Notes: generated by a model from the sequence alone, not told the origin. A stretch of 64,000 bases of DNA from Acidimicrobiales bacterium (GCA_963667085.2 OY762975.1:2480221-2544220), one strand, 5' to 3'; numbered from the stretch's first letter, positions 51,692 through 59,460 are shown. Made by a program: numbers and translations.

Positions 51692-52216
51692 CTAGGGATC
51701 GGTGCCGGTGCCGCGATCAAGAATGCGTTGGTAGGCGTCAACGGTTTCCTGGTTGAAGGCAACGAACCGGACCTTTGAGACGCTGGTGGGTGCAGATCGG
51801 ACGGTGGCGACGGCGATGGCGGCCGCGGCGTCAATCGGATACCCGAAAACCCCGGTGGAGATGGCTGGAAAGGCAACGGTGTCAGCTTCCACCTCGTCGG
51901 CCCGGGCCAGCGACTCCCGATAGCAGGAGGCCAGCAGCTCTGGCTCTCCGTGGCCGCCGCCATGCCACACCGGCCCCACGGTGTGGATCACCCATCGGGC
52001 CGTGAGGTTGAACCCCGGCGTGATCTTGGCCTCCCCGGTCTCACATCCACCCATGGCGCGGCAGTACTCGACCAACTCCGGTCCCGCCGCCCGGTGGATC
52101 GCCCCATCCACCCCGCCACCCCCCAGCAAGGTGTGGTTGGCCGCATTCACGATCGCATCCACGTCTTCAGCTGTGATGTCGCCCTGGATAAGAACCAAAT
52201 GAGGTCTAGCGCTCAT
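51692..52216 (-). CDS. macro-domain protein (O-acetyl-ADP-ribose deacetylase/ADP-ribose-binding, YmdB-like)
   Basis: ORF 51692-52543 trimmed to ATG 52216 ([45 protein letters not shown]...). Canonical macro motifs, 174 aa. Confidence 0.9.
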
Positions 52217-52289
52217 AGCGTGCGGCAATCCTACGTTCGATGATGTGCTCTCGGTCAGCAGGAGCCTGTAGAGAAATCTCTGGGATGGT

Positions 52290-53489
52290 TTAGCGTCTAG
52301 GAATCGGATCAGGCGGTGGGGTAGGCGGTTTCTGCCAGGGTGGCCGGAGGTAGCGGCGACCGGTGTCGGGGTGCTTCTCCACAGCCCAGTTGTTGTTGTG
52401 AACCTTGTCGTGGCAGGTGTGACACAGCAGTACCAAGTTGTCGGGCTGGGTGGGTCCGCCGTGTTGCCATTCGATGATGTGGTGCGAGATGCACCATTCG
52501 GGTTCGACCTGGCAGCCGATGCAGCCCCCATCTCGGGCTTCAAGAGCAGCTCGCAGGGCGAAGTTGGGGTGGCGGCTGGTGCTGCCCAGCCAGATGGGCT
52601 CGGTGTCAGCTTCTCGAAACAGACCGCAGAGGATGTCGGCGTCGCAGGCCAGCATGTGGAACTCAGACGCCGGTAGGGGAGTGCCGTCAGCCAGGCGAGG
52701 GTTGCCCAGCTTGTTGTCGACGAGGTCGTAGTCGGCCATCAACAACAACGTGGTGCCTTGGGGTTGCTCTTTGCCGCCGTCAGAGCTTTGGCGAGTTATC
52801 AGTTGCTCAAGGGCGTCGGCCCGGCGGTGCCGGTCTGAGATGTGATCTCGGCCCCGCTTGTTGTCGAAGCGCCAGTTGGCGTCGGTCTTGGCGTTAAGTG
52901 TCTTGCGAATGCGGGCCGCCGCGGTGGAGTCGAACAGGGCGTACATCTGCCACATGCCATCATCTCGTTCGGTGAAGCTGCCCGTTCGGGCCTGTCTCTG
53001 GCGCTCATGACGGGCCTCCCCGTCGTCGCCGGCCAACTCGTTCTGATGGTCCCGCATCGTCTTGCGGAACTGATCCGGCGTCTGAGTCTCAGCCGCCACC
53101 AGCATCTTCTGCTCGTCCATCGGCCCATTCTCCGACGCCCTTCCCATGATCCGAGCGTGCTCAGGGGTGATCCGGCTGTCCACCAAAGCGTCCCGAGTGG
53201 CCCCCAGCTTCTCCAGTTGTGCAGCCTCGTTCATCGTCTTGCGAGCCTGCCCTCTCGACACCCGCAACCCCTCCAGCAATCCATCAACGGTGTCACCCAC
53301 CCGCGACCGCCGCTTCTTCTCCGCCACCACCTCCGCAATCAACCCCGAGACCCGGCTCTGCACCCGCCCCAAATCCCGCAACCGAGAATCCAACCCAGCA
53401 GCATCCAACCCCCGAACATCCACCGCCGCCAACACCGAACGAGGCACATCGGCGGCAGTGTTATCCCTGGTCAGAGCTTCAAACTCCAT
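52290..53489 (-). CDS. DUF222-type HNH endonuclease (actinobacterial 13E12-repeat-like family)
   Basis: 399 aa with a long helical N-terminal region. The C-terminal HNH reads [36 protein letters not shown]. Confidence 0.85.
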
Positions 53490-53578
53490 GCCAATATTCT
53501 ATCGACGCCTGTGACAACATCTCTCTGGGAGCAGCCGCGTCGATCAAGCCGTCACACCCTGCAAGTAGAGTGCTCGGC

Positions 53579-56500
53579 GTGACTGATCAGGTAGAAACGA
53601 AGCCAGACTCCTCAGACGGCAACCCGGTCTTCCGTCTTGAGCTTCCTGGCTGTAGCGGCACCGGCGTATTGCTCCCCGACGGCGGCTTCCTGGTTCGTGC
53701 CGGTGCAGTGGGGCGTGCCGAGACCAATGAATCGTTCCACAAGTATGCGAACAAATACCGACAGCAGCTTCGCCAGGAACTGCTTGACGACGGCACTCTC
53801 CTGGTCGATGGCGACCGTGCGGAGTTGACCCGTGACTGGGAATTCAATTCACCAAGCGCTGCCGGCGCGGTGCTGACAGGTAGCAATAGAAGTTGGCTTG
53901 ACAAGTGGCATGACGATGACGGCAAGACACTCAGGGAGTGCCTGCCCATCGAGACGAGCAATTCCGGCGGCGGCACTGACCCCGGGCCTGCCTCACCAGG
54001 GGAGATTGAGTTACGCCAGCTTTGGTATGAGGCACATGTTGGGCGATTCACTGCGGATCAAGGCCGCTACCAAGAGGCCATGTCGGCCACCGAGGGATTC
54101 AGGGCAAGTGCGGATGAAGCTCTCAGGCTGCTGGCTGATCTTCGACGAACCGGTGACCTTGACCGGTTTATTAGGGACATTCGGAAGTGGGCGGTAGCAC
54201 CGGGGACACTGGACTTCAGTGGGTTTGCCGGAGGGTTGCTGTTGAACCAGCTATACGATCGAGCCGACGAACCCCAACGATTCGCCCATCTGCTGGCCGA
54301 GTCGCTCACGGCTCCTGCTTCCGATCAGGAAGCTCTCGAGAAGCTTACGTCGATGGTGGACTATGTGAAGTCCATCAAGGTTGGAGCATACCCAGCCCCT
54401 GGAAGTGTGCCGTTTCTGTTGTCATATTTTTGGGCGCTGGCCGACTGGAAACGCTGGCCGGTGATGTGGGCAAGCGCTGTCCGTTTCATTGAGTTCTCTA
54501 CCGGTGAGAACCTGCCGGATGATCCTCCTGAGAAGTATCGGGTGTTTGTTGAGAGGGTCCGGGAGCTTACCTCCGACTATGAGGAGTTTGAGACGACCGC
54601 CGCATGGTGGCAGAACCAGGAGCCTGTATTCCTCGACGAGGTGCTGGCGGATCGCGCCGCTTTCGCCCTCGACACCGAGACTGCGGCGCAAGGCGACCTG
54701 GAGATCAATGCCCGGGCTCTCGTGAGCATCGCCAAACATTGGGGTATACGGCTTGCCGACGACGTCGCGGAAGCGCTCGGTCACCCAGTCAAAGTGATCG
54801 TGCCGAAGGCCAGCAGTGCCAGGCCAGACCTATGGGTGGACTGGCGAATCAACGAGGCCGCCGAAAACGGGCTCAGCATGAGGGTCTGGGTAACCGACCA
54901 GGGAGCAGCGGTTGCCCTACGCCCGGGGGTAAATCCAAAGGGCTGGATGGACAAGGTTGCGCCGGAACTTTCTTCAGCCAAACACGACGGCTGTCGAGTC
55001 CTCGGCGGACCTAGCTCCCAAATCGGCGAGGATGTCGGACTTCTTGGGGCCCACTGGGCAGAATTCGTCTATGGGCGGTGGTTCGACCGGGAAGAGTTCG
55101 CCGATGTCGACTTGGCGGCCACGGTTGTCGAGACGGCTACGCAGCTGAAGCCCCTGTTTGACGATCTACTGGCTCTTGCGGACCCGGAATCTCAGAAGCC
55201 GAATGGCGGTGACCCGATAGCGTCACGCGTCGAGAAGTTCCGAGCCGAGACTGGTTATCCAAGGCCCGAGGATGAGGAGCACAAGGCAGAACAGCGCCGA
55301 TTTGCAGAAGTGCTTGACCCCGAATCCATAGGCCTGGCTGATCCCGCCGAGATCCAACGGATTTGGAATGGTGGCAATTACGGCGGAACCGGGCCAATGT
55401 CGGGGTTGAATAGATCGTTCCGCGATGCTGACGCGGCCGAATACGAACGCATGGCGGAATCTTTCCGCTATCTGTGCTGGGGAGAGGATGCCGACGAGGA
55501 GCGCATCGACCGGCTGCTCACTGACGACCAATATCGCATTAGAGGGCTCGGGGAGTCAGTCATCATGAAGATGTTGGCGATCACACACCCTGACAAGTTC
55601 CTCTGCGTCTATCCCCAGCGTGGAGACATGGGGAAAAGCAAGATGCTCTCTTGGCTCGAGCTTGAGGAGCCAACTGGCTCGCGCGGCGAGATCCAAGTGG
55701 AATCCAACAGGCTCCTACGCGACCGACTTGAGCCATTCTTTCCCGACGACCCTTGGGGTATGTCGCAGTTCTTCTATTGGTATGCGTACGGACTCTCACC
55801 CAGTGCCCCCCAGGAGTTGGATGAGCTGGCTGAGGAACTGCTGGTCGAACGAAAGTTCCTGGACGACGTGGTCGAATTGTTGAAGGACAAGAGGCAGGTG
55901 ATCTTCTATGGGCCACCGGGGACGGGCAAAACGTATCTGGCCCGAAAGCTGGCCGAGGCTCTGGCCCCTGGTCCGGGGCAGCGGGCGTTGGTGCAGTTCC
56001 ATCCCTCAAGCTCCTATGAGGATTTCTTCGAGGGGTACCGGCCCCGAGTTGACGGCGGCAAGATGACCTACGAACTCACACGCGGTCCTTTGGCAGACAT
56101 GGCAAAGCTGGCCGCGGGTACCCCTGACCAACAGCATGTGATGATCATCGACGAGATCAACCGGGCCAACTTGCCCAAGGTGCTCGGCGAGCTGCTGTTC
56201 CTGTTGGAGTACCGCGACGAGAGCGTGCGCACGCTCTACCGACGACCCGACGATCCGTTTGCGCTCCCCCGAAACCTGTGGTTCATCGGCACCATGAACA
56301 CTGCCGATCGCTCCATCGCCCTGGTGGACGCCGCCTTGCGGCGTCGGTTCCACTTCATCCCGTTCTTCCCGAACCGCAAGCCAATAGCGGGGCTGTTGGA
56401 TCGTTGGCTTGAGGCGAATGGTGAGCCTCGGTGGGTGGGCGAGTTGGTGGCACAAGTCAACGACGAACTCAAAGATGCACTGGGTGGGGACGACCTACTC

Positions 56501-56767
56501 GTCGGGCCAAGCCACTTCATGAAGGCAGGCTTGGACACCGAGGTCGTGCGGCGAATTTGGGAGTACAACATTGAGCCGTTCATCGAAGACCAGTTCTTCG
56601 GCGACCCAGCGGAGATCGAGCGGTTCCGCTTCAAGAATGTCTATGAGCGGTACCGCGACTACTCCGGTCAAGACGAGATGGAGGCAGCCCAAGAACAGCC
56701 TGTAACCGCCACGCCGTCTGACGAGAGCGACGAACCACAAGAAGACCAAAACGACGAGGCGGAGTGA
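53579..56767 (+). CDS. mcrB: McrB-type GTPase (type IV restriction specificity/motor subunit) with very long N-terminal extension
   Basis: ORF 53219-56767 trimmed to GTG 53579 (or 53570), because codons upstream are antisense to the HNH gene. Walker A GPPGTGKT at 55910-55933, Walker B MIIDEINRAN, McrB signature MNTADRS at 56294-56314, and ALRRRFHF. The N-terminal ~110 aa look DUF4357-like (FNSPSAAGAVLTGSNRSWLDKW). Confidence 0.85.
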   Translation: MTDQVETKPDSSDGNPVFRLELPGCSGTGVLLPDGGFLVRAGAVGRAETNESFHKYANKYRQQLRQELLDDGTLLVDGDRAELTRDWEFNSPSAAGAVLTGSNRSWLDKWHDDDGKTLRECLPIETSNSGGGTDPGPASPGEIELRQLWYEAHVGRFTADQGRYQEAMSATEGFRASADEALRLLADLRRTGDLDRFIRDIRKWAVAPGTLDFSGFAGGLLLNQLYDRADEPQRFAHLLAESLTAPASDQEALEKLTSMVDYVKSIKVGAYPAPGSVPFLLSYFWALADWKRWPVMWASAVRFIEFSTGENLPDDPPEKYRVFVERVRELTSDYEEFETTAAWWQNQEPVFLDEVLADRAAFALDTETAAQGDLEINARALVSIAKHWGIRLADDVAEALGHPVKVIVPKASSARPDLWVDWRINEAAENGLSMRVWVTDQGAAVALRPGVNPKGWMDKVAPELSSAKHDGCRVLGGPSSQIGEDVGLLGAHWAEFVYGRWFDREEFADVDLAATVVETATQLKPLFDDLLALADPESQKPNGGDPIASRVEKFRAETGYPRPEDEEHKAEQRRFAEVLDPESIGLADPAEIQRIWNGGNYGGTGPMSGLNRSFRDADAAEYERMAESFRYLCWGEDADEERIDRLLTDDQYRIRGLGESVIMKMLAITHPDKFLCVYPQRGDMGKSKMLSWLELEEPTGSRGEIQVESNRLLRDRLEPFFPDDPWGMSQFFYWYAYGLSPSAPQELDELAEELLVERKFLDDVVELLKDKRQVIFYGPPGTGKTYLARKLAEALAPGPGQRALVQFHPSSSYEDFFEGYRPRVDGGKMTYELTRGPLADMAKLAAGTPDQQHVMIIDEINRANLPKVLGELLFLLEYRDESVRTLYRRPDDPFALPRNLWFIGTMNTADRSIALVDAALRRRFHFIPFFPNRKPIAGLLDRWLEANGEPRWVGELVAQVNDELKDALGGDDLLVGPSHFMKAGLDTEVVRRIWEYNIEPFIEDQFFGDPAEIERFRFKNVYERYRDYSGQDEMEAAQEQPVTATPSDESDEPQEDQNDEAE

Positions 56768-57960
56768 GCGACACGATCACGCTCTACGAGTACGAGCGGA
56801 CATCGCATCGGCTCTCGGAATCCCAATCGCGTCGCCTTGCCTCCGTGGGTAAGGGTGCGGTCACCGTAGAGCCGGAGGCTCAACACGGCTACTACTCGAT
56901 TACCGCCCAGAACTGGGTGGGCACCTTGGTAGTCGATGATCTTCGGGTGCTGATCCGCCCAAAGATCAGGCCAGAAAACCTGTTCTTGCTGCTGGAAGTG
57001 GGCTTGAGCCCCGATGCTTGGCGGCAGGAGGCCTTTGACTACGCGACCAGCGCCGACCTGTTGCCCTCGGTGATTGCCTTTTATGCACGCACCTTGGAGA
57101 CCACCCTGGCCCGAGGGCTCCTGCGTTCATACCGCCATACCGAGGAGAGGCTGGTGGCGCCGCGGGGGCGCATCGACATGGCCGGGCAATTCCGCCAAGC
57201 AGGAATCCGGGTGCCGGTGGCGTGCCGATTCGACGAGTACACCTCCGACATCGCCGAGAACCGCTACCTGAAGGCCGCGACCCGATTGGCGCTGAGGGTT
57301 CCTGGTGTGGCTCCTGAGGATCGTCAACGATTGCTTCGGGAGGTCGTCTCACTGGAGGATGTGGCCGACGTCCATGTTCAACCTGACGATCTCGACCGAA
57401 TTGCATTCACCCGTTTGAACGCTCACTATCAGCCTGCGCTGCGCCTCGCCCGGCTGCTGCTCGCGAACCTGACTCTGGCTGACCGGCGCGGTCATCACGC
57501 CGCTTCGTCGTTCCTGGTGGACATGAACCAGCTCTTCGAAGACTTCGTCACCCAGCGGCTGCGACGGGCGTTGCAGGGCCGTCTCGAAGTAGCGAGCCAG
57601 TTGAGCACCTACTTGGCAACTCGCAACCAAGTGCCGATTCGCCCCGACTTGGTGTTCCGCAGGCAAGGCCACGAGGTCCTTGTCGCCGATATCAAATACA
57701 AGCTGACTGGCGATGCTCAAGCCCAAAATTCGGACTACTACCAGTTGCTCGCTTACACCACGGCACTCGATCTCCCGGAGGGGCTGTTGATCTACTGCCT
57801 TGCTGACGATGGTCGGCCGGAAGGGGTAGTGACCGTTAGACATGCTGGAAAGCGACTTCACACCAAGGCCATCAACTTAACCGGTTCATCTAGTGAGGTG
57901 GCTTCGGAGATATCCGGTCTTGCCGGGTGGATTCGCGGACAGGTTCGGGTCGCTGCATGA
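56764..57960 (+). CDS. mcrC: McrC-like nuclease subunit
   Basis: 398 aa with a GTGA overlap with the mcrB stop. PD-(D/E)xK-type motif RPDLVFRRQGHEVLVADIKYK at 57640-57696, followed by YYQLLAYT. Confidence 0.8.
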   Translation: MSDTITLYEYERTSHRLSESQSRRLASVGKGAVTVEPEAQHGYYSITAQNWVGTLVVDDLRVLIRPKIRPENLFLLLEVGLSPDAWRQEAFDYATSADLLPSVIAFYARTLETTLARGLLRSYRHTEERLVAPRGRIDMAGQFRQAGIRVPVACRFDEYTSDIAENRYLKAATRLALRVPGVAPEDRQRLLREVVSLEDVADVHVQPDDLDRIAFTRLNAHYQPALRLARLLLANLTLADRRGHHAASSFLVDMNQLFEDFVTQRLRRALQGRLEVASQLSTYLATRNQVPIRPDLVFRRQGHEVLVADIKYKLTGDAQAQNSDYYQLLAYTTALDLPEGLLIYCLADDGRPEGVVTVRHAGKRLHTKAINLTGSSSEVASEISGLAGWIRGQVRVAA

Positions 57961-58026: not shown

Positions 58027-58051
58027 GGTCACTTTCAAAGCAAAAGTGACC
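58027..58051 (+). terminator. perfect 9-bp inverted repeat GGTCACTTT-7 nt-AAAGTGACC (mcrC terminator or fic operator)
   Basis: Stems at 58027-58035 and 58043-58051, followed by GTTTAT. It lies in the 114-nt AT-richer gap between mcrC and fic. Confidence 0.3.
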
Positions 58052-58074: not shown

Positions 58075-59460
58075 TTGGTAGGCGTGGGGAGGTACGTCAA
58101 CCGCGTTCACGATGGTGTTCTAGGGCCTGAGCCGTACAAGGCGCTGGTGCCCCACGGTATCGCCGGCTGGAGTCCGGAGTTGAGCGAGGGGACGGCCCAG
58201 CGGGTGAAGGCTGCTGGTGATCGAATGTTGGGATTGGCGGCCAGGCTGCCCCAGCATCCTGCATTGGAGTGGTGCCTGAAGCGCTCAGAGGGGATCGCGA
58301 CCAGCGACGTGGAGGGGGTCTCGACGACACTGCGGTCCCTGAGCTTGCTCGAATCGCTTAGGGCCGAGCGCGACCCCGAGCGCCAGAAGCGCGACAGGCA
58401 GGCTCTCGGTGCGGTGCGGCTCGCCGCCCACGCTGTCGCGGTCGGGCGCCGGGGGTCCGACCCTGTGCGCGTCTCCGACCTGAGCGAGATGCATATGCGG
58501 CTGTTTGAGAGTGCCGACGTTCCGCTCGAGCCTGGAAGCCTACGCAGCGACGACATCTGGGTCGGCCCGGAAGGGGCCACACCGCCCGAGGCGCTGTATG
58601 TCGCACCGCCAGCGGAATATGTGCCTGCTCTCTGCGAAGACTTGATGGACTATGTGTCGGCCCACGACCTTGAGCATCCTCTGGCCAAGGCCGCAGTCGC
58701 CCACTTGCAGTTCGAGACGATTCATCCGTACCCCGACGGGAACGGGCGTGTCGGCAGGGCGCTGATCCACTGCGTATTGCAGCGCAACTGGCCGACTGTG
58801 GTGCCCGTGCCGCTCTCGGCTGCGATTGCCGAGCACAAGCAGAGATATTTCGCCGCGTTGCGGCCTTACCAGGCCTACACAGGCGACAGCGAGAGCCAAG
58901 TGCGCGATGCTTGCGCGGAGGCAGCGGTCTCATTTGTGGCCGACGCGGCCACTGTCGCCTGCGATTACGCCGAGTCAGTCGGCTACGCCATAGAGGGCAT
59001 GTTGGCTAAGTGGGATGAACTGGGTTTGAGGTCGCACTCGGCGGCGGTGGCCACGCTGGAAGCGATGGCCACGATGCCCGCCGCGAGCGTCACCTACCTG
59101 ACTGACGCGACGGGCCGCAGCCCCAATTCGGTGAGGCGAGGCCTTCGCAGCCTGGTCTCAGCAGGGGTGGTGGCAGAGACGCGGGACGAGGACACAGGGC
59201 TCAGGGTGTTCGAGGTGCCTGAGCTGCTGAAGGTCGTTGACCATCGCCAAAGGCTCTTGCAAATCTGCTGGCACTCGCACCAAGCAGGTCTGGGACTCTC
59301 GGCAGCCGAGCTCGTCGCCCAGTGGTGCCGGGCCGCCGTTGCGGACGAAGTGGGCCTGCAACCGTTGGCGCGGCAGGGCCGGTGCAGCCATATCGGCGAG
59401 CGCAGCAAAGTCCGATGCACCCAACCGGTAGGCCACACGTTGCCTCACCGCTACACCTAG
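58075..59460 (+). CDS. Fic-family protein (AMPylase-type), N-terminal inhibitory motif, C-terminal winged-helix plus tail
   Basis: 461 aa (TTG 58075 or GTG 58084). Fic motif HPYPDGNGRVGR at 58723-58758. Inhibitory-helix motif TSDVEG, i.e. (S/T)xxxE(G/N), at 58300-58317. Fic_N-like PYKALVPHGI near the N-terminus. Confidence 0.88.
   Translation: MVGVGRYVNRVHDGVLGPEPYKALVPHGIAGWSPELSEGTAQRVKAAGDRMLGLAARLPQHPALEWCLKRSEGIATSDVEGVSTTLRSLSLLESLRAERDPERQKRDRQALGAVRLAAHAVAVGRRGSDPVRVSDLSEMHMRLFESADVPLEPGSLRSDDIWVGPEGATPPEALYVAPPAEYVPALCEDLMDYVSAHDLEHPLAKAAVAHLQFETIHPYPDGNGRVGRALIHCVLQRNWPTVVPVPLSAAIAEHKQRYFAALRPYQAYTGDSESQVRDACAEAAVSFVADAATVACDYAESVGYAIEGMLAKWDELGLRSHSAAVATLEAMATMPAASVTYLTDATGRSPNSVRRGLRSLVSAGVVAETRDEDTGLRVFEVPELLKVVDHRQRLLQICWHSHQAGLGLSAAELVAQWCRAAVADEVGLQPLARQGRCSHIGERSKVRCTQPVGHTLPHRYT

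What the first reader, a model, noticed from the sequence alone, without database searches (positions are those of the whole stretch)
53579..57960. McrBC-type restriction pair whose McrB carries ~740-780 aa of mostly unassignable sequence ahead of the GTPase core
Seen: the 53579-56767 product ends in an unmistakable McrB core: GPPGTGKT, MIIDEINRANLPKV, IGTMNTADRS and AALRRRFHF. It overlaps by 4 nt (GTGA) a McrC-like gene with an RPD...ADIKYK nuclease motif. Established: in E. coli McrB only about 200 aa, a single DNA-reader domain, precede the P-loop. Family members are known to swap this reader to change which modified base is sensed. Here the P-loop starts at residue ~778. The first ~110 aa resemble a DUF4357-type module (VFRLEL...LLPDGGFLVRAGA...FNSPSAAGAVLTGSNRSWLDKW). 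Residues ~480-600 (HPVKVIVPKASSARPDLWVDWRINEAAENGLSMRVWVTDQGAAVALRPG) faintly recall the McrB N-terminal/DUF3578-type reader. The remaining helical stretches match nothing I can name. The protein also ends in an acidic tail (SDESDEPQEDQNDEAE). Inference: this is a type IV, modification-dependent system with a composite, possibly multi-reader specificity region. It is the best candidate in this window for an undescribed variant system.
Basis: partly seen in the sequence, partly recalled or inferred. Interest (0 to 1): 0.72.

Follow-up and report, generated by a model that had tools for sequence, protein, structure and literature searches.

The report
McrBC restriction pair, uncharted reader array
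This is an intact McrBC-type DNA restriction gene pair whose motor protein carries about 745 extra residues built from four stacked modules, three of which match no described protein family, so the enzyme type is ordinary but its target-recognition end is uncharted.

Summary
Window 53579-56767 encodes a 1062-aa McrB. It has a canonical GTPase core (E. coli McrB AAA+, E 4e-43; Walker A at 778-785; NTAD signature). It overlaps by GTGA a McrC gene with an intact PD...DxK nuclease motif.

The N-terminal 745 aa resolve into four modules:
- D0: residues 1-135, carrying a Pfam DUF4357 match.
- D1: residues 141-297, helical.
- D2: residues 298-540, alpha/beta; its only structural relative is B. subtilis YktB.
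- D3: residues 545-745, helical.

D1-D3 fold with mean pLDDT 91.6 and are under purifying selection as strong as the GTPase. They have no match in Pfam, NCBIfam or PDB sequences.

The modules recombine across McrB relatives: D2-AAA, D3-AAA, D1-D2-AAA and D1-D2-D3-AAA all occur, and about a third of the family carries D0. In other relatives D3 sits between known readers (DUF3578, EVE, Mrr_N, ScoMcrA_N) and the GTPase.

The D1-D2-D3 family was found only in Actinomycetota and always with McrC. No third gene and no methyltransferase is conserved beside it.

Verdict: a canonical McrBC mechanism with an undescribed modular specificity region. This is a new variant of a known kind, of moderate interest.

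The parts
53579..56767 (+). mcrB-like gene, 1062 aa (GTG start; alternative GTG at 53570)
   Evidence: ORF and translation. E. coli McrB AAA+ match E 4e-43. 111 homologues at 39-83% identity.
53579..53983 (+). D0: DUF4357-containing module, residues 1-135. Optional in the family.
   Evidence: Pfam DUF4357 at residues 65-118, E 2e-14. PADLOC PDC-S14 C-terminal region covers residues 10-121, E 4e-19. AF2 pLDDT 80.6 with strands and helices over residues 17-121. Foldseek against PDB gives nothing below E 0.33. Present in 36 of 111 homologues and 8 of 51 genome loci.
53999..54469 (+). D1: all-helical module, residues 141-297
   Evidence: AF2 model, block pLDDT mostly above 90. No Pfam, NCBIfam or PDB sequence match. 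dN/dS 0.17-0.26.
54470..55198 (+). D2: alpha/beta module, residues 298-540, YktB-like fold.
   Evidence: All seven strands of the AF2 model (model residues 264-363, i.e. protein residues about 404-503) lie inside D2. Foldseek best hit is 2a8e (B. subtilis YktB): E 2.8e-3, probability 1.00, TM(target) 0.61. Assigning that hit to D2 is my inference, because D2 is the only strand-containing part. No sequence-level match with a 22-sequence profile. D2 is the sole N-terminal domain in P0240, 607 aa.
55211..55813 (+). D3: helical module, residues 545-745, directly abutting the GTPase. Contains the hairpin-like GLGESVIMKML at 656-666.
   Evidence: AF2 model. In every listed relative that has both D3 and the GTPase, D3 ends 5-60 residues before the AAA+ match. 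Homologous at 99.9% probability to the domain between MrcB_N and AAA_5 in P0243. Only weak HhH-GPD glycosylase hits. No PDB or NCBIfam sequence match with a 27-sequence profile.
55817..56668 (+). McrB AAA+ GTPase core with lid, residues 747-1030. Walker A at nt 55910-55933, Walker B at 56141-56170, NxxD (NTAD) at 56297-56308, RRRF at 56339-56350.
   Evidence: PF28529 (McrB_lid) is recorded for nearly all full-length homologues. It is missing from those truncated at or before our residue ~981.
56669..56764 (+). Acidic C-terminal tail, residues 1031-1062 (net charge -13)
   Evidence: Sequence. The sequence is poorly conserved but the acidity is kept: family median net charge -9.
56764..57960 (+). 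mcrC-like gene, 398 aa, GTGA overlap with mcrB. Catalytic D295 (nt 57640-57648, RPD) and D309-x-K311 (nt 57688-57702).
   Evidence: PF10117 E 7e-56. NCBIfam McrC E 2e-28. BLASTP against E. coli McrC aligns the catalytic motifs. A McrC homologue follows in 50 of 51 loci.

Best explanation
This is a two-gene, chromosomal McrBC restriction system of the canonical NxxD class.

Mechanism, by homology with E. coli McrBC (inferred): McrB assembles into a GTP-hydrolysing AAA+ hexamer. McrC stimulates the GTPase and cuts DNA with its PD-DxK site after translocation.

What differs is the target-recognition end. Instead of one ~160-aa reader, it has an array D0-D1-D2-D3.

My reading of the modules (all inferred):
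- D1-D2 is the core specificity module of this lineage. It is present in every member and sits in the slot that DUF3578 or EVE occupies in sister McrBs.
- D3 is an adaptor shared by many McrBs. It couples whatever reader lies upstream to the motor.
- D0 (DUF4357) is an accessory second reader added in one sublineage.

No methyltransferase is linked. Self-DNA must therefore be spared by recognising a feature that host DNA lacks, most simply a base or backbone modification carried by phage DNA.

Shown here: the domain anatomy, its conservation, the modular distribution and the McrBC hallmarks. Inferred: DNA binding by D1-D2, the adaptor role of D3, and dependence on modification. The modification recognised is unknown.
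For: McrBC hallmarks:
- AAA+ core E 4e-43 to E. coli McrB.
- Walker A, Walker B, NTAD and RRRF present.
- McrC PF10117 E 7e-56, with the catalytic D...DxK aligned to E. coli McrC.
- GTGA translational coupling.

The N-terminal region is real and functional:
- AF2 mean pLDDT 91.6, giving three compact domains.
- dN/dS for D1-D3 is 0.11-0.31, against 0.16-0.24 for the GTPase.
- The region aligns almost without gaps (gap fraction at most 0.08 per 20-residue block) across 79 full-length proteins.

Modularity:
- Representative-library search: 731 representatives at E <= 1e-3.
- Architectures among the 150 best: D1+D2+D3+AAA (30), D3+AAA (26), D1+D2+AAA (11), D3+D3+AAA (5).
- Checked on real loci: L050 D3-AAA, 579 aa, then McrC. 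L053 D1-D2-AAA, 738 aa, then McrC. L059 D2-AAA, 607 aa.

Slot equivalence:
- ScoMcrA_N+MrcB_N+D3+AAA in P0243.
- EVE+D3+AAA in P0248 and P0253.
- Mrr_N+D3+D3+AAA in P0181.

Other support:
- Mosaic domain-by-domain identity and dS between close homologues, the kind of module shuffling seen in restriction specificity regions.
- Across 51 genome loci only McrB and McrC are conserved, with no methyltransferase among the recurrent neighbours checked and none among the ORFs checked in window 47.8-63 kb.
- DUF4357 is listed as a domain commonly fused to McrB (PMC11090510) and occurs on GmrSD and GIY-YIG nucleases (PMC4619093).
Against: - No module was shown to bind DNA.
- D1, D2 and D3 are strongly acidic (pI 5.2, 4.5 and 4.7; net -4, -20 and -13), both here and in distant relatives. 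This is unusual for DNA readers.
- The only structural relative of D2 is YktB/DUF1054, whose function is unknown and which is not known to bind nucleic acid.
- D0 has no structural relative in the PDB.
- The HhH-like resemblance of D3 is not significant: Foldseek E about 1 with TM(target) 0.2-0.34, and hhalign probability 0.2%.
- Foldseek does not report which part of the 608-aa model each hit covers.
- L050 shows D3 as the only N-terminal domain, so D3 may be more than an adaptor.
Confidence: 0.6

Rival explanations
1. The D1-D2-D3 array is not a nucleic-acid reader. It is a sensor or regulatory scaffold, for example binding a phage protein or a small molecule, or auto-inhibiting the ring. 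On this view DNA contact comes from the AAA+ ring, from McrC, or from D0 where it is present.
For: - All three modules are markedly acidic across the family and in distant representatives.
- None resembles a known DNA-binding or base-flipping fold.
- The nearest fold, YktB, has no known function.
- A conserved acidic C-terminal tail is also present.
Against: - D2 alone, D3 alone and D1-D2 alone each form the whole N-terminal part of some McrBs. That is the position the DNA reader holds in every characterised McrB.
- D1-D2 sits exactly where MrcB_N or EVE sits in D3-bearing relatives.
- Many conserved Trp, Tyr and Arg residues in D2 (W343, R359, R415, R435, W437, Y498, W501) would suit base or backbone contacts.
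Confidence: 0.22
2. It is a sequence-specific McrBC-like enzyme of the LlaJI, LlaI or BsuMI type. It cuts unmodified sites, and the host is protected by a cognate methyltransferase.
For: Such non-canonical McrBC relatives exist (bioRxiv 10.64898/2026.08.31.748284). The specificity of D1-D3 is unknown.
Against: - No methyltransferase among the ORFs checked in window 47.8-63 kb.
- No gene other than McrB and McrC is conserved across 51 loci, and recurrent neighbours are housekeeping genes.
- Reader and motor are fused in the canonical two-gene layout.
Confidence: 0.06
3. It is a CoCoNuT-like, RNA-directed McrBC derivative.
For: The long N-terminal extension is helix-rich. CoCoNuTs are McrBC derivatives with large non-reader extensions (PMC11090510).
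Against: - The signature motif is NxxD (NTAD), not the NxD that defines the CoCoNuT branch (PMC11090510).
- AF2 gives compact globular domains, not long coiled coils.
- McrC keeps an intact PD-DxK site.
- No tandem nuclease, helicase or Hsp70-like partner gene is present.
Confidence: 0.03
4. The long N-terminus is an annotation artefact. On this view the real protein starts internally, either at Met259 as in the public call of the identical protein or near the AAA+ core.
For: The identical public protein P0002 is annotated as 804 aa starting at MVDYVKS.... No sigma-70-type promoter was found upstream.
Against: - The ORF is uninterrupted.
- Residues 141-745 are conserved almost without gaps in 79 full-length homologues, and dN/dS equals that of the core.
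- D1 starts at the protein N-terminus in the two thirds of homologues that lack D0.
- AF2 folds the region confidently.
- The promoter scan does not cover actinobacterial promoter types.
Confidence: 0.03

Closest known systems
E. coli K-12 EcoKMcrBC (McrB plus McrC; PDB 6hz4, 6ut6, 7vsr)
   Same: - AAA+ GTPase core: E 4e-43, with Walker A, Walker B, NxxD and an arginine motif.
- A lid domain.
- McrC with its N-terminal domain plus a PD-DxK nuclease.
- mcrB upstream of mcrC, translationally coupled.
   Different: - E. coli has one ~160-aa DUF3578 (ADAM) reader. Here ~745 aa in four modules precede the core, and none is DUF3578.
- An acidic C-terminal tail is present here.
D3-bearing McrB relatives with known readers: ScoMcrA_N+MrcB_N+D3+AAA (P0243), EVE+D3+AAA (P0248, P0253), Mrr_N+D3+D3+AAA (P0181)
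   Same: - The same D3 module directly before the same type of GTPase (hhalign probability 99.9%).
- Multi-domain N-terminal arrays.
- A downstream McrC, shown for P0253.
   Different: Their upstream slot holds recognised modified-DNA readers. The window's protein has the uncharacterised D1-D2 there, plus DUF4357.
DUF4357-carrying nucleases (GmrSD variants, GIY-YIG and T5orf172 proteins, PADLOC candidate PDC-S14)
   Same: The D0 module matches Pfam DUF4357. It also matches the C-terminal ~110 aa of the PDC-S14 models. It is fused to a nuclease-associated defence protein.
   Different: - Here the module is N-terminal to a McrB motor.
- It is dispensable in two thirds of the family.
- The function of DUF4357 is itself untested.
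B. subtilis YktB (DUF1054/UPF0637; PDB 2a8e)
   Same: It is the only near-significant structural match of the mid region: Foldseek probability 1.00, TM(target) 0.61 over 218 columns.
   Different: - 13% identity and no sequence-profile link.
- YktB is a stand-alone ~210-aa protein of unknown function.
CoCoNuT systems (Bell et al. 2024, PMC11090510)
   Same: They are McrBC derivatives with large extensions on McrB.
   Different: CoCoNuTs have an NxD motif, long coiled coils, extra nucleases and predicted RNA targeting. None of these is seen here.

Membership tests
McrBC (type IV, GTP-dependent) restriction systems | McrB AAA+ core homologous to E. coli McrB, with Walker A and Walker B | tested here: met
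   phmmer against 6hz4_A gives E 4e-43 over residues 747-1017. NCBIfam McrB E 8.5e-41 at 140 bits, below the full-length equivalog cut-off of 637, as expected for a core-only match. GPPGTGKT at 778-785 and IIDEIN at 856-861.
McrBC (type IV, GTP-dependent) restriction systems | McrB signature Nx(x)xD motif, with NxxD in the canonical clades | tested here: met
   MNTADRS, with N907-T-A-D910. N907, T908, A909 and D910 are each conserved in at least 95% of the 79 aligned proteins.
McrBC (type IV, GTP-dependent) restriction systems | Adjacent McrC with a McrB-activating N-terminal domain and a PD-(D/E)xK nuclease | tested here: met
   PF10117 E 7e-56 over residues 47-344. D295 and D309-I-K311 align with E. 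coli McrC METD...VDAKY. A McrC homologue lies downstream in 50 of 51 loci.
McrBC (type IV, GTP-dependent) restriction systems | GTP-dependent cleavage restricted to modified DNA | not testable with these tools
   This needs biochemistry or a restriction assay. The only indirect support is the absence of a linked methyltransferase.
DUF3578 / MrcB_N (ADAM) 5mC reader | Match to Pfam PF12102, or to E. coli McrB residues 1-161, by sequence profile or by fold | tested here: not met
   - No PF12102 hit at E <= 10 in 12 plus 22 family members.
- hhalign probability 0.3%, and the aligned stretch is not in D2.
- P0243, which does have MrcB_N (E 1e-38), aligns with the window protein only through D3.
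- No McrB-N structure among the 50 Foldseek matches listed.
DUF4357 (PF14267) | Score above the Pfam gathering threshold | tested here: met
   53.4 bits against a cut-off of 38.4, residues 65-118, full model length 1-54.
HhH-GPD DNA glycosylase superfamily (as a reading of D3) | Significant profile or fold match that includes the HhH hairpin and the Gly/Pro-Asp loop | tested here: not met
   - Foldseek hits to MutY, EndoIII and TDG have E 0.9-4, probability <= 0.5 and TM(target) 0.15-0.34.
- hhalign against E. coli Nth gives probability 0.2%, although its best local alignment does put GLGES on the Nth hairpin LPGVGRK.
- No Pfam or NCBIfam hit.
- This is a lead only.
YktB / DUF1054 (as a reading of D2) | Fold similarity, and sequence-family membership | tested here: inconclusive
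   Fold: Foldseek E 2.8e-3, probability 1.00, TM(target) 0.61. Sequence: no DUF1054 hit, and 2a8e is not recovered by a 22-sequence profile. The result is a similar fold without demonstrated family membership.
CoCoNuT | NxD GTPase motif, long coiled coil on McrB, tandem or extra nucleases | tested here: not met
   NTAD is an NxxD motif. The AF2 domains are globular. The locus has two genes with no conserved extra gene.

The most novel reading that the evidence does not exclude
D1-D2 (a YktB-like fold) and/or D3 could be new classes of recognition domain. Either they read a DNA feature that no known type IV reader covers, for example a hypermodified base or a backbone modification common in actinophage or marine phage DNA. 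Or they sense a non-DNA cue that licenses the McrBC motor. The same reading would give the first functional clue for the widespread YktB/DUF1054 fold.
Probability: 0.2. Interest if true: 0.7.

Novelty: new variant of a known kind. Interest (0 to 1): 0.45.

Why it matters
- **Specificity.** McrBC specificity lies in the N-terminal reader, and each new reader fold has so far revealed a new way of recognising modified nucleic acid (DUF3578, YTH-like, PUA-like, B3-like). Here three conserved, confidently folded modules with no family assignment occupy that position in hundreds of McrB representatives.
- **A possible general part.** One of them, D3, recurs between known readers and the motor. That suggests an unrecognised general part of McrB architecture.
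- **Experimental access.** Cultured carriers would make this testable. They include Brevibacterium aurantiacum ATCC 9175, Corynebacterium xerosis, Knoellia flava and Garicola koreensis.
- **Practical use.** New modification-dependent nucleases are useful for epigenome mapping. They also explain barriers to transforming Actinomycetota.
- **Limit.** If the modules turn out to bind ordinary 5mC DNA, this is just another McrBC.

Tried and rejected
- **Sequence searches on the mid region.** Pfam, NCBIfam and PDB-sequence searches of residues 141-748 found nothing. This held for the single sequence, a 12-sequence profile, and diverse D2 (22-sequence) and D3 (27-sequence) profiles.
- **PF28529.** This family, listed for the homologues, looked like a possible mid-region family. 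It is McrB_lid, at the C-terminus.
- **DUF3578 hypothesis.** Rejected.
- **Foldseek of the D0 model against the PDB.** No meaningful hit.
- **Foldseek of the mid region against viral BFVD.** No meaningful hit.
- **Plasmids and viral contigs.** tblastn against PLSDB plasmids and a scan of IMG/VR found no relatives. The alignment A4 was too divergent for a pattern scan.
- **Word-index searches.** Two protein searches, with D0 alone and with the D2 profile, returned only a few fragments and added nothing.
- **Source record.** An exact look-up of the public 804-aa call found no record, so the source record was not identified.
- **Literature.** A search on YktB, DUF1054 and DUF2461 gave no functional information. 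The McrBC census papers do not describe these modules.
- **Promoter scan.** No sigma-70-type site was found, but the scan is uninformative for this phylum.
- **Third gene.** A conserved third gene or methyltransferase was sought. Only antisense shadow ORFs and syntenic housekeeping genes recur.

Full report
**Observation**

The window carries a 1062-aa ORF on the + strand, from a GTG at 53579 to a TGA at 56767. It is followed by a 398-aa ORF at 56764-57960 that overlaps it by GTGA. A longer reading of the first ORF from 53219 is not credible. It would overlap the divergent gene at 52290-53489, and close homologues begin at the same MTDQVE... position. A GTG three codons upstream, at 53570, is an equally possible start.

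- GPPGTGKT at residues 778-785
- MIIDEINRAN at 855-864
- NTAD at 907-910
- RRRF at 921-924
- the acidic tail at 1047-1062
- in the second protein, RPD at 293-295 and DIKYK at 309-313

**The known parts**

Residues 747-1017 match the E. coli McrB AAA+ domain at E 4e-43. They also match AAA_5 at E 5e-23. The signature motif is NxxD, which puts the protein in the canonical rather than the CoCoNuT (NxD) part of the family, as defined in PMC11090510.

Homologues carry PF28529. A gene table shows this family to be McrB_lid. It is absent from homologues truncated at or before our residue ~981. It therefore covers the C-terminus, not the N-terminal region.

The second gene matches Pfam McrBC at E 7e-56. 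BLASTP against E. coli McrC aligns its D...DxK residues with the catalytic METD...VDAKY.

Residues 65-118 match DUF4357 above the Pfam threshold. PADLOC models of the candidate system PDC-S14 extend that match to residues 10-121.

**The unknown part**

Residues 141-748 have no match in the local Pfam copy, NCBIfam or the sequences of the PDB. This is true for the single sequence and for a 12-sequence profile. The newer precomputed Pfam annotations of the homologues list nothing in this region either.

AlphaFold2 with an 87-sequence alignment gives a confident model, mean pLDDT 91.6. I split it into three units, using the boundaries at which partial relatives start and stop:
- D1: residues 141-297, helical
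- D2: residues 298-540, helices plus a seven-stranded sheet
- D3: residues 545-745, helical

Foldseek against the PDB gives one hit of note. It is 2a8e, B. subtilis YktB (DUF1054): E 2.8e-3, probability 1.00, TM-score 0.61 on the target, 218 columns. I assign this hit to D2 by inference, because D2 is the only strand-containing part. The tool does not report which part of the query aligned.

A series of HhH-GPD glycosylases (MutY, EndoIII, TDG) follows at E about 1, with poor TM-scores. hhalign of a diverse D3 profile against E. coli Nth does place GLGESVIMKML on the Nth helix-hairpin-helix, but at probability 0.2%. That resemblance is a lead, not a finding.

Diverse profiles of D2 and D3 still find nothing in the PDB sequences, in Pfam (D2) or in NCBIfam (D3). 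The D0 model (pLDDT 80.6) has no structural relative in the PDB. The viral structure library gave nothing for the mid region.

**The DUF3578 suggestion**

The suggestion was tested in four ways, and all four failed.
- The Pfam MrcB_N model gives no hit on any of 34 scanned family segments.
- hhalign of the family profile against E. coli McrB residues 1-161 gives probability 0.3%, at an unrelated place.
- No McrB-N structure appears among the 50 Foldseek matches listed.
- A relative that carries a genuine MrcB_N domain (P0243, E 1e-38) aligns with the window protein only through D3.

**Family and distribution**

A word-index search with residues 120-745 found 111 protein clusters at 39-83% identity. 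All those long enough to include the C-terminus carry the McrB core. 36 of the 111 carry DUF4357. The rest begin directly at D1.

A scan of one genome per species found 51 loci, all in Actinomycetota. Most are Acidimicrobiia MAGs, including Candidatus Poriferisocius. Cultured carriers include Garicola koreensis, Paraoerskovia sediminicola, Brevibacterium aurantiacum ATCC 9175, Corynebacterium xerosis, Knoellia flava, Citricoccus, Nesterenkonia and Dermacoccus.

Every locus has the GTPase fused downstream. Fifty have McrC next.

Clustering all neighbouring ORFs shows that only McrB and McrC are shared by all loci. The other large clusters are antisense shadows or syntenic housekeeping genes: Mur ligase, Ddl, MurJ and a PAPS-reductase-domain gene. 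No methyltransferase recurs among the neighbours checked. Nothing related was found in PLSDB plasmids or IMG/VR.

**Evidence that the N-terminal region is translated and functional**

Residues 141-1030 align almost without gaps across 79 full-length proteins. Pairwise dN/dS against seven close homologues is 0.11-0.31 for D1-D3 and 0.16-0.24 for the GTPase. D0 is more relaxed, at 0.17-0.63.

The public annotation of the identical protein starts at Met259, giving 804 aa. This looks like a start-codon miscall.

**Modularity**

An exhaustive HMMER search of 1.84 billion representatives with the mid-region profile gave 731 proteins at E <= 1e-3 and 187 at <= 1e-30.

I scored the 150 best with separate HMMs for D0, D1, D2, D3 and the core. 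The architectures were:

| Architecture | Representatives |
|---|---|
| D1+D2+D3+AAA | 30 |
| D3+AAA | 26 |
| D1+D2+AAA | 11 |
| D3+D3+AAA | 5 |

A few longer forms also occur. Many of the remaining entries are fragments.

The minimal forms were checked on DNA:
- L050 encodes at most 579 aa of D3-AAA, followed by McrC.
- L053 encodes a 738-aa D1-D2-AAA protein followed by McrC, with a divergent upstream gene fixing its start.
- L059 encodes a 607-aa D2-AAA protein.
- L058 has D2 and the motor as two overlapping calls.

In every listed relative that has both D3 and the GTPase, D3 ends 5-60 residues before the AAA+ match. In relatives with other N-termini, the region upstream of D3 holds recognised modified-DNA readers:
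- ScoMcrA_N plus MrcB_N in P0243
- EVE in P0248 and P0253
- Mrr_N in P0181

D3 of P0243 is homologous to the window's D3 at 99.9% probability.

Identity and dS vary sharply from module to module between close homologues. In L007 and L009, D3 is 45% identical while D2, the core and McrC are 75-86% identical. For L004, dS is 0.31, 1.74, 0.54 and 2.06 for D0, D1, D2 and D3. This points to allele swapping by recombination inside the array.

**Interpretation**

The mechanism of the enzyme follows from homology with E. coli McrBC. A GTP-driven AAA+ hexamer is activated by McrC, which cuts with its PD-DxK site.

The N-terminal array is best read as the specificity end. On this reading D1-D2 is the lineage's core recognition module. 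It is present in all members, it is sufficient as the sole N-terminal part in some McrBs, and it lies in the slot of DUF3578 or EVE. D3 is an adaptor shared among many McrBs. D0 is an accessory module in one sublineage.

With no linked methyltransferase, recognising a feature absent from host DNA is the simplest way to avoid self-cleavage. That fits a modification-dependent enzyme.

These functional steps are inferences. Two caveats matter most:
- D1, D2 and D3 are all acidic (pI 4.5-5.2; net -20 for D2), here and in distant relatives. This is atypical for DNA readers.
- The only structural relative, YktB, has no known function.

A sensor or regulatory role therefore remains a real alternative.

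**Comparison with what is known, and novelty**

Membership in McrBC is met on every sequence criterion tested. The activity criteria cannot be tested here. The protein is not a DUF3578 McrB, not a CoCoNuT, and not demonstrably an HhH-GPD or DUF1054 family member.

N-terminal diversity of McrB is well recognised. DUF4357 is already listed among domains commonly fused to McrB (PMC11090510). The census paper deferred classification of the fused specificity domains. I found no description of D1, D2 or D3 in the searched literature.

I rate this a new variant of a known kind: ordinary machinery with an undescribed, modular recognition region and a possibly general adaptor domain.

**Context**

The pair sits in a small islet of lower G+C, 0.59-0.62 against about 0.64 in the flanks. 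Its neighbours are a Macro-domain gene, a DUF222-HNH gene and a Fic gene that matches PADLOC SoFic. Metabolic genes flank the islet. The window contains no tRNA gene.

Noticed in passing
window 58075-59460 (+): A Fic/DOC protein with a C-terminal HTH lies immediately downstream of mcrC. It matches the PADLOC SoFic model at E 3e-49. Together with McrBC this makes a small two-system defence islet. It is not conserved next to McrBC in the 51 related loci.
   Followed up: partly
window 58027-58051 (intergenic between mcrC and the Fic gene): A perfect 11-bp-stem palindrome reads GGTCACTTTCAAAGCAAAAGTGACC on the + strand. It is flanked by the near-repeat CGTTTTTGCAAT / CGTTTATGCAAT. It could be a terminator for mcrC or an operator for the Fic gene.
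   Followed up: no
window 52290-53489 (-); also L001 16117-17241, L004 6844-7980, L006 14763-15902, L013, L046: A DUF222-HNH endonuclease gene lies divergently upstream of mcrB. Homologues lie 1-3 kb from the McrBC pair in several Acidimicrobiia loci. It may be a mobile or selfish HNH element that favours these islets, or a functional partner.
   Followed up: partly
window 51692-52543 (-): A Macro-domain protein (PF01661, E 3.5e-47) sits at the edge of the low-GC islet. As listed, the ORF overlaps the HNH gene by about 250 nt, so its true start is probably further downstream.
   Followed up: no
window 53579-55813 compared with L002, L004, L007, L009: The N-terminal array evolves as a mosaic. 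D3 is only 45% identical in L007 and L009 although D2, the GTPase and McrC are 75-86% identical. dS differs up to six-fold between adjacent modules of the same gene pair. This suggests recombinational swapping of module alleles.
   Followed up: partly
window 56669-56764 (McrB residues 1031-1062): The C-terminal tail is poorly conserved in sequence but consistently acidic across the family (net -13 here, median -9). It is absent from E. coli McrB. Its role is unknown.
   Followed up: no
window 54353 (Met259 of McrB): The public annotation of the 100%-identical protein (P0002, 804 aa, on a 3.35-Mb contig) starts at this internal Met. It therefore omits D0 and most of D1. Short 'DUF4357-only' proteins P0112-P0115 (118-221 aa, 63-84% identical to D0) may be similar split or mis-called McrB genes.
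   Followed up: partly
L058 4001-5837: In one relative, the D2 module (320 aa) and the GTPase plus lid (304 aa) are called as two overlapping genes ahead of McrC. This is either a frameshift in the assembly or a natural split of reader and motor, as in LlaI-type systems.
   Followed up: no
L003 3974-5635 and 12 other loci: A gene with a PAPS-reductase domain recurs about 4 kb upstream of mcrB in 13 Acidimicrobiia loci. It is probably syntenic housekeeping cysH. It was not checked against DndC or SspD-type DNA phosphorothioation genes.
   Followed up: no
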